DNA of 64,000 bases from Octopus vulgaris (Eukaryota). The position numbers and the translations under genes are program-made. This document shows positions 22,582 through 46,673 of this stretch, in pieces; positions within the stretch are counted from its first letter, which is position 1; each line of letters starts with the position of its first letter. The stretch is taken from assembly GCA_951406725.2 (NCBI GenBank), contig OX597814.1:40548001-40612000 (forward strand), given 5' to 3'. Below the pieces are notes generated by a model that was given only the letters and a program-made list of their open reading frames with translations, searched no databases and had not been told where the DNA came from.

Positions 22582-23198
22582 ATATTATTAGTGAATGGAA
22601 TAAATGGAGTTGAACGAAGATTGTACAGAATACCTTTTATTACATTCTACACATGTTTCGAAGGCCGCAAATTTCCAAATTCTGTTTAAATAAGGGTACC
22701 ATATTGCGGCTTTTTCTTCAGGAAAAAAAAACAGGAATTCCGTTGACAGGACAAAACAAAACAGAGGCACAGCAATTCGAACGAAGATGCTCCTTAGGAG
22801 CCCATGGCTGAACTGTTTATCAATGTACGTTGAAATCGGGGATTTCGTTCGAATTGCTGTGCCTCTGTTTTGTTTTGTCCTGTCAACGGAATTCCTGTTT
22901 TTTTTCCTGAAGAGAAAGCCGCAATATGGTACCCTTATTTAAACAGAATTTGGAAATTTGCGGCCTTCGAAACATGTGTAGAATGTAATAAAAGGCATTC
23001 TGTACAATCTTCGTTCAACTCCATTTATTCCATTCACTAATAATATTAAACTTCAATTATCCGCTCCAACGCACGGTTGCAACACCAAATGGTCTTATCT
23101 CCAAACGTGCTGTTTTCCGCTGTGATTTTTGCTACCCAGGTATCGGTTAAACCTTTGAATATTCTGTTACAAGAAAATTCATCTTTCTATTTCAACAA
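22582..23198 (+). mobile_element. (TA)n-flanked fold-back element: ~203-bp inverted arms (22582-22785 / 22844-23046) plus ~150-bp tail
   Basis: Arms are near-perfect reverse complements; each carries a hammerhead motif. Confidence 0.9.
22904..22983 (+). ncRNA. Minimal type-I hammerhead ribozyme (extended stem II)
   Basis: ttc-CTGAAGA-gaaagccgcaa...ttgcggccttc-GAAAC-atgt-GTA^-gaa; full core, 3-bp stem I, palindromic ACAUGU at stem/loop III. Confidence 0.8.
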
Positions 23199-23306
23199 AT
23201 ATATATATATATATATATATATATATAGATAGATAGATAGATAGATAGATAGATAGATAGATAGATAGATAGATAGATAGATAGATAGATAGATAGATAG
23301 ATATAT
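23199..23306. repeat. (TA)n(GATA)n microsatellite
   Basis: Directly visible. Confidence 0.95.
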
Positions 23307-24939
23307 GAGTGTTGGCACGCGTGTGAGTGTGTTTTTGTGAATCAGTGTGTGACAGAGAGACAGACCGCCCGAGACGCTGATCGATTGATTGATAAATAAA
23401 TTCCGATATAGTGAGCTATGCTAGCTTGCAAACAATCGATATTACCTTACCTGTTGCTCGTCGTTCACAGGAAAGATATTCTGTGGTGTGTTTTAGATGA
23501 TTTAGTTACAGTGATTATATTATATAAGTGTTAGTGACCTCAATCTGAAGGAAATATTTACATAACAAAAATGTGATAGAAGCTAAATCACAGTATATAA
23601 TGTTATTTGATGCTGTTAACCAATATACATAGAGAAATACTATCGTTAGATAGTGATAGTTATATGAGAAATTAAGTTATTGATAGCGAGGCTTCCAGAA
23701 AAACATCTTAAAATGAGATATTCAATGGAGGATGATTTAAGAATTAAATCATATATCATTAACACCACGAACAAATGTATAAAGTAGATATACAGAAAAG
23801 AAAGCAACGAAGTTAATGGCTAAATATAGGAAATAGCCAACGAAATAAAATATTAAGCAATCGAATGTATTGACAAGTAATGTAATGATCAGATATTTAA
23901 GCTGGTTGTGTAAAAGTAATAATCATTTAACAGTTTATTATGAAATGAGTTAAAAAATAAGGTTAGAATATAAGAAAAATCAAAAGGCGAAGTTGAGAAA
24001 AAATTATGGATTTAATGTGTGAAATAAAGTCGGCGTGAAGCAATATGGCGGCGTATGGTATATGTTACATAAAACTATAAAATAATTTAATTTTTTTCTT
24101 TTGTCTGTGGTTAGTAAATGATATTTCCTATTTGCTTCTATGGAGATATCAGAGGAAATTATCACTATTCTCTTCAAACTTTACTTTTGTTAATTGTACA
24201 TCAGTGTTTTGAAACTGAACTATTTTCCACTACATTTTATATAGAGTCATCACTGAGATGCTGAAGCAGATATATCTTTATAGCAACTATTGTGCTTAGT
24301 GCAGCAGATTTGCTTGTCACATGCTTGAGCTTAACAACTTGATACTTAACAGCTGACAATAAGTTGATCTCTGATCATGAGCTGGAGAAGTGAGGGGACG
24401 TCAAATCTTAGGAGTTAAAAAAAATGAAACAAAAGGAAATTTTAGAAGTAATAGGCATCTTCATACTTTCAAGGGGTAAAGAAATGGGAAATGAGAGTGG
24501 CTACCGAAGAACAAAAATTATGATCCGCTGTGTAATTGATGACGTTTCACTTTTACATCATTGGATATACGAAACAAGCTGATAACAATCGCTGATATAA
24601 AACAATTATTAAAAATTACATCCCAGTAAGGCTTCATCATCATAGGCGATTCAAATAATATTGGTTTTTAAAGTCTAGCTTTAGAGATATCAAGTATGCA
24701 ATAAATGCATCAAATTATATTTTATGATGCGTCCGCAATCTGAAATTGAAAGATCAGTATTCTTCAGTACTGGATCTATGGTAGCTCATGATTTAAGCGT
24801 GTGTAATATGTGCACAGGATCAAAAACTTGTCTATTGCAAAACATTATGAATTATATACATACATATATATATATATATATATATATATATATATATATA
24901 TATATATATATATATATATATATATATATATATATATAT

Positions 24940-25440
24940 ATATTGTTATATTTTGGAATGGTCATTTTGCCAGTTTAGCCAATAAAAACACACGCACTAT
25001 ATATTTGGTGTTATTTTGCTTCAGTGTTATTTATTTTTATCTTTGTGTTATTTATTTTTTACATTAATCTTAATCTTATTTCGGCCAGAGTTCTTTTGTC
25101 ACACTCCTGTGACCGCATCAGTGGTCCTTTGTTTTCTTCTTTCTTATTTATGTCTCTCCTTACTAACCGTCAGCCATTTTGTATTTCTATTGTATGTCTT
25201 CATTTGCGCATGCTTATATCTCTATGTGCATTTATGTTTATTTAGTGTGTGTATGTAGGGGGATGCCTGTAATATTTACATCTTCTGTTTATATATGTTC
25301 AATTCGTGTTTTGTTTTTGTTGTCTTAGTTTATTCTTATTTTGTTGGCTAAACTGGCAAAATGACAATTCCGAAATATAACAATATCTGTTTCAACACAC
25401 GACTTCACATAAAAAATCTTGCACAACAAATATTTAAAGG
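24940..25440 (-). mobile_element. (TA)n-flanked element with ~48-bp inverted repeats and a degenerate hammerhead
   Basis: IR at 24940-24988 / 25340-25387; minus CTGATGC-ggtca...tggcc-GAAA at ~25079-25121. Confidence 0.65.
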
Positions 25441-43800: not shown

Positions 43801-45261
43801 CACGGATTCCATATTTCTGATTTATGATATGTTGTACGTATAATACAAAATTTAAGTAAGGAGAACTCTTATAAACCACAAATATGTAAATGAAGTATAA
43901 ATATGGCTTGAAAGAATCCAACAAAATAACTACGAGGCGTTAGTGCAAGATTGTTACTGTTGACACTACGCTAGCTATCATTATATTATCGAGAGAAAAG
44001 GAAATTGGAGTCGCACGTCCTGAGAAGCAGACATCATATCGTAAGGGGAAGTGTGTGGAGAAGACTCAAACCCCTCTTACAGCACATCAAAAGGACAAAA
44101 AGAACGTTTTTACATTCTTATGTAAATGTTATACTTTCTTGTGTAATTCCTTTGAAACTTTGATCAGTCTTTTTGATATCTATTTTTCAATTAATGACAA
44201 GACATTTGATGTGCACCTACATTAAGAAAGCTATCATTCTTGGTAGCATGGAAGTAGGTACGTTGCCCACTAAAACAGAATACTTTACGACTAAGGCTAT
44301 GGATTTCTAACAAATATTGAATCCTTCTCTGCAGAGAAATGTGAAAAAAATATAGAATCTGTCCATCGGGAGTCATTCATATATTTCTGCATGTTAGAGG
44401 AATGAGTGAAAGTTGATTAGATTTTCACTTGATACTTTATAAACTTAAATTTCTAATAGTTCATGGTAATTTAGACGTTATTTTCGCAATGTTTTGCGCC
44501 TATAATATATATCATTTAATGATATCATGCTAAATAAAAAATATTTAAATGAAGATATATAAAATCATCAGAGTTTAGCAGCTTGTATACGGATATTCAT
44601 GCATACGCACATACATATTTAAATTGCAACACACACAAACACATGTATATATAGAATTAAAATAAATAGCAGACTGCATTGTTTTAACAAAACTAAAAAC
44701 TGTAATTGTCGCTAAATGGGAATAGGGTATCAGACACACCTACGCATCGCTATAAATAAAAGCTAAAATGATTTAATGCTATGTAAAAGCACATAACTGT
44801 ATACATACATCCATACAGACAGACACAATGATCGTTGGAACGCAACGTTCGAGAATTATTTTTGCTGACGCCTATAATTGTCATTAAATGTGCATATTCT
44901 GACGATTATAGTCCCTGTCTGTATATATGTAAATAATCATCTGCCTATACTACATCATTGGAGCAGTTTCGCTCTTGTTTCTTTGAAGTTAGTTGTTTTT
45001 AACACTCTCGTCATATTTAGTGACAATTTTAGTTTACAGTTTTGGTAAAATAGTGCAAACTGCTGTCTATTTTAATTTTATATATACCCATTAACGATTG
45101 CTAAATCATCCATAGATTTGTATGATGAAATCATATATACAGAATGAGAAATTGCAATGCACGTGTTTTTTATCACCCTAATCACATTTAGTGACAATCA
45201 TATCTATCTATCTACCTGCCTATGTCTCTCTCTCTCTCTCTCTATATATATATATATATAT

Positions 45262-46140
45262 GTTTCACGTTCTTGTCCCAGTTTGTGTATTTTTTTTACA
45301 TTAACATATATACATGGCGGCTACGTACCCACTTTTTGACCCTATACGTAAGTATATTACTCTCTAACATTGGTACGACTCTACTACACTGTCTCTTTTT
45401 CCCCCTTCTCCAAATTTCTCTGCCTTAACCCTTTGCACTCTCCTTGATCTGTCTCTTTCCCTCTCTTTCTTCTCCTTCCTTGTTCCCTTTCTTTCTTTCT
45501 CTCTTCCGCCGTCCCCCCTCTCCCACATTTCTCTGCCTCTCACACCTTACACCCCACTTGACCTGTCATTCCCTCTCTTTCTTCTCCTCCCTTGTTCCCC
45601 TTCTTTCTCTCTTCATCTGTCCCTTTCTCCTCTCTTTTGTGCTACGTGAGCAGCCAGCGACTACTGCCTTTTCGCATCCAGTAGTCAGTGTGGCAACACG
45701 TATTTCTTTGTGCTCCGTTGCCTTAAGGCACTTTTCCTTAGCCAGCCTTAAACTAAACTTAACTCGTCTTGTCGAAAAGACGCTTGTCCTGACGTCCTGG
45801 TTTTGTTATTATTGTTTTTACGTATTTGTATTCTTATTCGTGCTATCATTATTGTTTTTACGTATTTTTGTATTTTTATTCGTGTAACATCATCCGTTTT
45901 CCGTCCCTGTGTTGTATACTTTCGAGGCTTTCTTCCAAGGAATCTAATGCGCTTGGCTTAGATTTCCCTTGCAGGCTGCCCAGATCGGAGCAATCTCAAG
46001 ATTAATCAGCCGAAATTGCGAAGATGATCCGGTTCTTGACTGATGACTGAGAGCTTCGAAAGTCCCGTCCGTGTTTTTTGTGTCTCTTCTAAATGTTTCA
46101 CGTTCTTGTCCCAGTTTGTGTATTTTTTTAAAATTTACAC
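45262..46140 (+). mobile_element. Non-coding PLE-like repeat with short terminal direct repeat, between (TA)n tracts
   Basis: tgtttcacgttcttgtcccagtttgtgtattttttt at ~45262 and ~46094; CTGATGA..GAAA remnant at ~46040-46061. Confidence 0.65.
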
Positions 46141-46275
46141 ACGCATATATATATATATATATATATATATATATAGAGAGAGAGAGAGAGAGAGAGAGAT
46201 TCAAAGGAATATGGTACTTAATTTAGATACACCAGAATTCTGTATGGTGTTATCCATATAAATCTGTGGGGTGAT

Positions 46276-46673
46276 TATAATCAAAATAAGCAAGAAGAAT
46301 AACTCCGGTAATTTGGTACGATCGTTTGGCAGTTCATCATTTTATTAAATGTTGTAAGTACTACAACAGTTTTAAGATGGTGAGCACTCATCAGCCATTT
46401 CTAGAGGTTTTCCCTTAATACAAAATTTTCATATCAAGTGGTAACATTATAGAGAAGGTAGATATATAGACAAAGATGTGAATTTAAATTTTAAGAACAT
46501 AGTATTACCACTTGATATGAAAATTTTGTATTAATGGAAAACCTCTATAAATGGCTGATGAGTGCTCACCATTTTAAAACTGTTGTAATACTTACAACAT
46601 TTAATAAAATGCTGTAGTGCGAAACGATCGTACCAAATTACCGGAGTTATTATTCTTGCTTATTTTGATTGTA
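46276..46673 (+). mobile_element. Fold-back element: ~168-bp inverted arms (46276-46444 / 46505-46673), abutting (TA)n
   Basis: Arms are diverged reverse complements with a 60-bp spacer. Confidence 0.88.
46552..46635 (+). ncRNA. Minimal type-I hammerhead ribozyme (long stem II)
   Basis: tgg-CTGATGA-gtgct..catttt..tgttgtaa-tac-ttacaaca..aaaatg..agtgc-GAAAC-gatc-GTA^-cca; palindromic ACGAUCGU. Confidence 0.82.

What the first reader, a model, noticed from the sequence alone, without database searches (positions are those of the whole stretch)
22582..46673. Recurring system: unrelated non-coding, (TA)n-anchored fold-back/tandem elements that each carry a minimal hammerhead ribozyme
Seen: at least three elements with no evident sequence similarity (22582-23198, 37932-38684, 46276-46673) share one architecture. 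Each is <1 kb, has no ORF, abuts (TA)n, includes an inverted copy of one end, and has a complete HHR core with a tiny palindromic stem III (ACAUGU, ACGCGU, ACGAUCGU). Decayed versions occur at ~22370, ~25080, ~46040, ~49295 and ~58045. Known: Penelope-like element pLTRs and retrozymes carry minimal HHRs thought to act as dimers, and PLE insertions often have inverted 5' pLTRs. PLE RT relics lie at 18053 and 49720. Inference: this is a diverse, (TA)n-targeting population of non-autonomous ribozyme retroelements, at roughly one motif per 6-10 kb here.
Basis: partly seen in the sequence, partly recalled or inferred. Interest (0 to 1): 0.85.

Follow-up and report, generated by a model that had tools for sequence, protein, structure and literature searches.

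The report
Penelope retroelement ends and their parasites
The three ribozyme-bearing repeats are real, but two are broken-off ends of ordinary protein-coding Penelope-like jumping genes of a known TA-repeat-targeting group and the third is a young non-coding tandem parasite that likely borrows the same enzyme, so this is mostly a known system.

Summary
The hammerhead (HHR) cores, (TA)n flanks and inverted ends are real; 'non-autonomous' is wrong for two of three. A (22582-23198) and C (46197-46673) are 5'-truncated 3' ends of Hydra-clade Penelope-like elements (PLEs): longer copies run into RT/GIY-YIG ORFs, open over 899-906 aa for A. Craig 2021 already lists Hydra PLEs, one from octopus, with (TA)n targeting and HHRs. 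B (37932-38685) is a non-coding 362-nt tandem unit, i.e. a non-LTR retrozyme (892 exact cores; 0 of 40 position-ordered loci joined to a PLE ORF). B and a missed fourth family (26270) carry the PLE-specific tail plus head-to-head inversion (B 38 of 45 inverted loci): direct insertion-signature support for the published but unproven idea that PLEs mobilise retrozymes. Side findings: the 58045 site is a tRNA-like-headed SINE with a minimal HHR and PLE-type insertions; family A targets (TA)n without the linker zinc finger. Cleavage and expression are untested. This scan found truncated PLE ends with HHRs in other genomes before.

The parts
22582..22851 (-). Element A inverted arm: tailless 3'-UTR end of Hydra-clade PLE family A, second HHR copy
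   Evidence: 97% to L094 3' UTR positions 460-727
22844..23198 (+). Element A direct arm: last 355 nt of family A 3' UTR/pLTR, including a 152-nt tail (23047-23198), ending in (TA)n
   Evidence: 97.8% to the 3' UTR behind the RT-EN ORF of L094; tail runs into the ORF start in L293
22907..22980 (+). HHR A: CUGAAGA, long helix II, helix III ACAUGUGU, predicted cut after A22980
   Evidence: core identical and helix II changes compatible with pairing in the 83%-identical subfamily L292
26270..26622 (+).
37935..38569 (-). Element B direct arm: 1.75 units of a 362-nt non-coding tandem repeat (retrozyme-like)
38107..38136 (-). HHR B copy 1: U3:A8 core UUGAAAA, helix III ACGCGU, predicted cut after C38107
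38469..38498 (-). HHR B copy 2, 362 nt from copy 1
38567..38685 (+). Element B inverted arm carrying the 63-66-nt tail, ending in (TA)n
   Evidence: L001
46197..46500 (-). Element C inverted arm including most of the 95-nt tail; HHR core broken
46499..46673 (+). Element C direct arm: tailless 3'-UTR end of Hydra-clade PLE family C, HHR 46555-46632
   Evidence: 92% to the 3' UTR behind the Hydra EN of L150
22270..22470 (-). Family E, ~215-nt very high-copy element with CCGACGA minimal HHR; autonomy unresolved
24944..25382 (-). 3'-UTR end of a third PLE (C-terminal GIY-YIG) with 44-nt inverted end; HHR-like motif broken in this copy
   Evidence: continuous with an EN-coding stretch in L104 and L213
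57962..58343 (-). Family G: tRNA-like head (58186-58255), (AAT)n spacer, body with damaged minimal HHR (~58045-58080); inverted head at 58275-58343

Best explanation
Elements A and C are 5'-truncated, inverted-arm insertions of the hammerhead-bearing 3' ends of two protein-coding Hydra-clade Penelope-like retrotransposons, and element B is a non-coding 362-nt tandem retrozyme that is likely inserted by the same kind of Penelope enzyme. Inferred mechanism: a PLE GIY-YIG endonuclease cuts in (TA)n and the RT starts at two fixed internal sites of the RNA, 62-155 nt apart here, which gives one tailed and one tailless end. The two cDNAs join head to head with variable 5' truncation. For B the template is likely a single 362-nt haplotype copied more than once round, i.e. 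an HHR-released circle or a homogeneous multimer. The HHRs have unstable palindromic helix III and would cut mainly as dimers. Shown: sequence links, end geometry, target bias, haplotype concordance. Inferred: cleavage, circles, and which PLE mobilises B and D.
For: A: EN-coding sequence lies upstream in 9 of 30 loci; open 899- and 906-aa ORFs, L293 with a 5' pLTR 92% identical to window A. C: a Hydra EN piece of 90 aa or more at the same distance upstream in 7 of 24 distinct loci. Hydra motifs DKT, CxxC and CxH are present and CCHH absent (definition); 21 of 31 long relatives carry DKT/S and none DKG. 3' ends followed by (TA)>=4: A 54/57, B 92/110, C 29/34, D 30/35, background 4.8%. One tailed plus one tailless end: A 18 of 18 inverted loci, B 38 of 45, D 8 of 10. 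The tail is described as unique to PLEs and maps to two RT start sites in vitro (PMC11167929). B: 892 exact cores vs 0 in the reversed control; 0 of 40 position-ordered and 0 of 26 top-scoring loci continue into a PLE ORF. Units differ 0.44% within a locus, 0.55% across the inversion and 1.64% between loci; variants seen in 3 or more loci are on all units in 117 of 130 cases, private variants in 5 of 100. The monomer folds at z -5.16. Core vs flank differences: A 0.9 vs 3.2%, C 1.9 vs 6.5%, D 0.4 vs 3.9%.
Against: No cleavage or RNA-end data. No autonomous partner with B's or D's sequence was found in 1.18 Mb of held DNA, so trans-mobilisation rests on insertion geometry alone. 66 B loci is a sample of several hundred, so a rare ORF-bearing master is not excluded. 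Tails of 62-155 nt are longer than the published 30-40 bp. In C only 5 of 29 loci were inverted and only 2 showed the tailed/tailless pair. The core is not better conserved than flanks in G (6.6 vs 3.1%) or overall in E (2.7 vs 2.2%; 0 of 216 at non-CpG sites), and B is too young to tell. A, C, D and E loci were top-scoring hits, not a random sample. Li 2026 saw cleavage in only 1 of 9 Xenopus retrozyme dimers; HHR mutants did not affect PLE insertion in vitro.
Confidence: 0.85

Rival explanations
1. All three are independent non-autonomous ribozyme retroelements forming a new (TA)n-anchored system.
For: The window copies are short, non-coding, unrelated in sequence and share one architecture; B and D are indeed non-coding tandems.
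Against: A and C copies run on into RT/EN ORFs at 92-98% identity to the window copies; the architecture is the published PLE signature.
Confidence: 0.04
2. B (and D) are only the pLTR of a rare autonomous PLE, so all families are ordinary truncation products.
For: True for A, C and 25080; only 66 B loci were read; earlier scan notes in other genomes often ended this way.
Against: B arrays of up to 4 units or more always continue upstream into another unit or an inversion, never into shared unique sequence; A and C showed their ORFs within 24-30 loci.
Confidence: 0.15
3. B arrays arose by local tandem duplication (satellite-like) after insertion of a single unit.
For: Units within a locus are more alike than between loci; Li 2026 discusses local amplification.
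Against: Private variants are shared between units in only 5 of 100 cases; the inverted arm is as similar as the tandem units; ends sit at two fixed phases.
Confidence: 0.08
4. The fold-backs are MITEs (DNA transposons with terminal inverted repeats and TA target duplications).
For: Inverted ends flanked by TA.
Against: Inversion centres vary between copies, many copies lack the inverted arm, the two ends are offset by a tail, and long copies carry RT.
Confidence: 0.01

Closest known systems
Hydra clade of C-terminal EN+ Penelope-like elements, including Hydra-1_Obim (Craig et al. 2021, PMC8557442; section 11, passages and supplement part 2 read)
   Same: C-terminal GIY-YIG without CCHH, DKT motif, CxxC/CxH, HHR in the 3' end with short helix I and palindromic helix III, (TA)n targeting, inverted 5'-truncated copies.
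   Different: Families A and C have HHRs unlike the one printed for Hydra-1_Obim, so they are other families; A is longer (3.6-kb period, 899-906 aa), has a 152-nt tail and lacks the CxCx5C linker.
Metazoan non-LTR retrozymes (Cervera & de la Pena 2020, PMC7229834, passages; Li et al. 2026, bioRxiv 10.64898/2026.07.22.740005, main text parts 1-3 of 5)
   Same: B and D: 360-430-nt non-coding tandem units, one type-I HHR per unit, low GC; B's monomer is highly self-paired.
   Different: Those papers propose PLE mobilisation from co-occurrence and pLTR phylogeny; 'inverted' does not occur in the 2020 text and I saw no tail or inversion analysis in the 2026 text. B's core is U3:A8. No circRNA shown here.
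Minimal HHRs of PLE pLTRs (Cervera & de la Pena 2014, PMC4209133, parts 1-2 of 4)
   Same: Palindromic helix III, U3:A8 covariant, thousands of solo copies, opposite-strand pairs 100-700 bp apart: all reported there.
   Different: U4C (family E) and A9C (25080 family) cores were not in the text I read; their activity is unknown.
Schistosoma Sm-alpha / Sj-alpha SINE-like HHR elements (as reviewed in PMC6765202, passages)
   Same: Family G: pol III-type promoter followed by an HHR.
   Different: G has a minimal HHR, an (AAT)n spacer, is dispersed rather than tandem, and shows PLE tail and inversion; the passages name no PLE partner for Sm-alpha.

Membership tests
Hydra-clade PLE (families A, C) | Single ORF, RT plus C-terminal GIY-YIG EN | tested here: met
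   A: 899/906-aa open frames. C: only the EN-bearing C-terminal part was recovered. Pfam does not detect either domain; the call rests on motifs and phmmer relatives.
Hydra-clade PLE (families A, C) | DKT for DKG; RWK motif | tested here: met
   A has DKT and IRWL, a variant of RWK; N-terminus of C not recovered
Hydra-clade PLE (families A, C) | No CCHH; CxxC and CxH around the conserved E/N | tested here: met
   alignment of two A proteins and the C fragment
Hydra-clade PLE (families A, C) | CxCx5C linker before the EN | tested here: inconclusive
   Present in C (L150) and 28 of 31 long relatives; absent in all 43 A rows, some loci counted twice. Read as a loss in A.
Hydra-clade PLE (families A, C) | HHR in the pLTR; (TA)n insertion | tested here: met
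Hydra-clade PLE (families A, C) | Placement in the Hydra clade on an RT tree | not tested
   no tree built
Non-LTR retrozyme (B, D) | 150-450-bp tandem unit with one type-I HHR, two or more consecutive complete HHRs | tested here: met
   B: 362-nt unit, two cores in the window. D: ~430-nt period, but two consecutive complete cores were not checked.
Non-LTR retrozyme (B, D) | No coding capacity, no ORF-bearing master | tested here: met
   B 0 of 66 loci, D 0 of 25 distinct loci; a sample, not exhaustive
Non-LTR retrozyme (B, D) | Self-cleavage and circular RNA | not testable with these tools
   needs a cleavage assay and RNase R northern or raw reads
tRNA-derived SINE (family G) | tRNA-like head with pol III A and B boxes | tested here: inconclusive
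   A- and B-box matches 43 nt apart; ARAGORN at default finds none in 30 loci, Rfam no tRNA hit, low-threshold calls inconsistent
tRNA-derived SINE (family G) | Head and body inserted as one unit with TSD | tested here: met
   head chained to body in 17 of 28 position-ordered loci; TSD of 9 nt or more in 7 of 28 vs 0.39 with swapped flanks

The most novel reading that the evidence does not exclude
This genome shows directly that Penelope enzymes have two classes of non-coding parasite. First, retrozymes (B, D) whose arrays are laid down in one event from a single haplotype with the PLE-only tail and inversion, i.e. rolling reverse transcription of an HHR-made circle. Second, a tRNA-headed, minimal-HHR SINE (family G, 1,987 exact 34-mers) inserted by a PLE rather than a LINE. 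My searches of the held library found no report of a PLE-mobilised tRNA SINE. In addition, family A keeps (TA)n targeting without the linker zinc finger proposed to mediate it.
Probability: 0.55. Interest if true: 0.6.

Novelty: new member of a known kind. Interest (0 to 1): 0.35.

Why it matters
The headline system is known. What remains useful is a set of young, high-copy substrates for three open questions. Family B (98% identical copies, two fixed RT-start phases) makes 'do PLEs mobilise retrozymes, and from a circle?' directly testable with an intact Hydra ORF from the same genome. Family A tests whether the linker zinc finger drives (TA)n targeting. Family G would extend SINE parasitism from LINEs to PLEs. 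For annotation, several apparent MITEs, SINEs and unknown repeats in this genome are PLE products.

Tried and rejected
Rfam scan of the window: only microsatellite-driven miRNA hits in the 150 rows shown. The repeat finder was swamped by (TA)n. RNA: no RNA holder on record was listed for B. Four contig runs laid on B (three guessed RNA, one unknown) cover parts of it but cannot show ends, strand or level; not used as evidence. A loose end, chased as a possible autonomous partner of B, matched one chimeric genomic site with no ORF. Poseidon ORFs near D (L121, L122, L117) are separated by TA runs and 5'-truncated, so rejected as partners. An apparent antisense ORF upstream of C was AT-rich 3' UTR. 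A word-index protein search with A's EN found nothing; the full HMMER search did. HHR-vs-rest conservation was discarded because 40 loci were picked by exact core match. No tandem junction for family E was found, and a few copies extend upstream, so its autonomy is open. MFE folding does not recover HHR folds for A, D or G as monomers; this is expected for unstable helix III and is uninformative. Lunse 2017 is not held; Ohshima & Okada 1994 on octopus SINEs was seen only as a reference, so G may be one of their families. The Zenodo repeat library of PMC13282606 could not be seen; one supplement file of PMC4209133 was not searchable; supplements of the 2026 preprint are closed and may bear on the retrozyme claim.
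Full report
Observation. A strict type-I hammerhead descriptor finds five cores in the window: 22907(+), 26362(+), 38136(-), 38498(-), 46555(+). Forty Markov resamples give a mean of 0.55 and a maximum of 3; four cores have a perfectly palindromic helix III against a mean of 0.125. The fold-backs and the 362-nt tandem are real, the three named elements are unrelated in sequence and all abut TA runs. 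Corrections to register, boundaries and HHR type are in the observation check. The genome is 2.8 Gb in 227 contigs; it looks like an octopus (my inference).

Element A is a truncated autonomous PLE. Among 30 top loci, 9 carry GIY-YIG-coding sequence upstream of the A match. L094 has 557 open codons of RT-thumb-EN followed by an 880-nt 3' UTR whose last 355 nt are 97.8% identical to window 22844-23198; the inverted arm matches UTR positions 460-727. An RT probe recovered full-length copies: L293 with a 906-aa frame (altered C-terminus) and a 5' pLTR 92% identical to window A, and L292 with a 3.6-kb tandem of 899-aa frames. The tail present at one end only leads into the ORF start. The protein has DKT, IRW, CxxC and CxH and no CCHH, matching the Hydra clade definition (PMC8557442 section 11). 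Of 150 phmmer hits I scored the 31 that are long and reach the EN: 21 carry DKT/S, none DKG, 28 the CxC linker. No tree was built.

Element C likewise. Copies end at two phases 95 nt apart, both at TA, and are variably 5'-truncated. An upstream probe gave 25 loci (24 distinct); 7 show a Hydra EN piece at the same distance, L150 with the CxC linker, and L150's 3' end is 92% identical to window C. The 25080 site is the 3' UTR of a third PLE, continuous with an EN in 2 loci.

Element B is different. Its 30-nt core occurs 892 times exactly, 0 times reversed. In 26 distinct top loci and 40 position-ordered loci, the sequence upstream is another unit, an inversion or unshared flank; none joins a PLE ORF. 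Of 66 loci, 45 are head-to-head inverted and 38 of these have one end at unit position 362 and the other 60-66 nt further. Units differ by 0.44% within a locus, 0.55% across the inversion and 1.64% between loci. Variants found in three or more loci are on every unit of a locus in 117 of 130 cases, two-locus variants in 7 of 32, private ones in 5 of 100. This fits one insertion event from one haplotype, not later local duplication; it cannot separate a circle from a homogeneous multimer. The cleavage-to-cleavage monomer folds at z -5.16, 0 of 100 shuffles as stable.

Targeting and conservation. 3' ends followed by (TA)>=4: A 54/57, B 92/110, C 29/34, D 30/35, E 21/25, G 3/79; random flank positions 4.8%. 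Core positions differ less than flanks in A, C and D, but not in G nor overall in E; B is uninformative. The sets for A, C, D and E are top hits and so lean to young copies.

Mechanism. PMC11167929 (abstract and passages) shows that a PLE RT starts at two internal sites that define the genomic tail, called unique to PLEs; it also found HHR mutants did not affect insertion in vitro. Arkhipova 2013 (passages) and Craig 2021 (passages) describe the inverted 5' copy and tail. I therefore infer PLE-driven insertion for all these families. Helix-III segments cannot fold alone but self-pair as duplexes (that script's windows were shifted by one base for A, C and D), consistent with dimer cleavage as in PMC4209133, where activity was low even in dimers. 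Li 2026 saw cleavage in 1 of 9 dimers. Cleavage here is untested, and RNA data were uninformative.

Known or new. Craig's supplement lists Hydra-1_Obim from Octopus bimaculoides with (TA)n preference and an HHR, and (TA)n for 26 of 27 Hydra families listed. Minimal HHRs, the U3:A8 variant and opposite-strand pairs are in Cervera 2014. Retrozymes as non-autonomous PLE derivatives are in Cervera 2020 and Li 2026. An octopus repeat annotation reports 190 PLE families covering 6.83% of the genome, with no mention of ribozymes in the supplement searched. So A and C are new families of a known clade and B and D new retrozymes. The added value is the insertion-signature evidence.

Side findings. A generic minimal-HHR pattern matches 16,094 sites against 507 reversed, mostly family E among the 100 rows shown. 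Family G (58045, also 4534) has a head with pol III A and B boxes, an (AAT)n spacer and a body with a minimal HHR. It has 1,987 exact 34-mers, the head chained in 17 of 28 position-ordered loci, TSDs in 7 of 28 vs 0.39 expected, and offset ends ~25 nt apart in 21 of 27 inverted loci. Its tRNA origin is not confirmed by ARAGORN or Rfam; a likeness to tRNA-Arg is recalled, not tested. No partner PLE was found. Four literature searches found only the Schistosoma SINE-like precedent; older octopus SINE papers could not be read. Family A lacks the linker zinc finger in all 43 rows examined yet targets (TA)n; trans-mobilisation by a linker-bearing family such as C is not excluded.

Verdict. Observation largely right, interpretation partly right; new members of known kinds; interest 0.35.

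Noticed in passing
window 57962-58343 and 4534-4666; L151-L175, L242-L271: tRNA-like-headed SINE with (AAT)n spacer and minimal HHR, inserted with PLE-type inversion, ~25-nt tail and TSDs; 1,987 exact 34-mers genome-wide; not TA-targeted.
   Followed up: partly
L292:3164-5860(-), L293:1781-4498(-): Hydra family A lacks the CxCx5C linker proposed to direct (TA)n targeting, yet 54 of 57 ends are at (TA)n; it has Asn/Ser-rich inserts between RT and EN.
   Followed up: partly
window 22270-22470; L176-L200, L302-L331: Family E, on the order of 10^4 copies, with a U4C core (CCGACGA) as majority; 68-72% similar to the HHR region of another PLE's 3' UTR (L209).
   Followed up: partly
window 24944-25382; L104, L213: 3' UTR of a PLE whose HHR-like motif reads CUGAUGC (A9C) in the intact copies; the window copy has also lost G12.
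   Followed up: partly
window 45257-46139: CT-rich element with 50-nt direct terminal repeat and HHR-like motif at 46040; diverged relative at 20873-21101; PLE-UTR-like, unresolved.
   Followed up: partly
L092 downstream of the ORF at 7133(-); L055: Poseidon-type PLE with RT and GIY-YIG whose 3' UTR HHR has a CCGAAGA core in L092 and CTGAAGA in the relative L055.
   Followed up: no
window 16559-16912, 37659-37841, 44645-45087: Further short inverted-end or fold-back elements without a descriptor HHR hit.
   Followed up: no
window 5777-7096 vs 9674-11016: Near-identical (99%+) local duplication of about 1.3 kb; recent duplication or assembly artefact.
   Followed up: no
window 33428-35428: CR1/L2-type LINE RT fragment in three collinear open stretches.
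   Followed up: no
window 1790-3022: 1.2-kb (TAT)n array inside a LINE-like ORF remnant.
   Followed up: no
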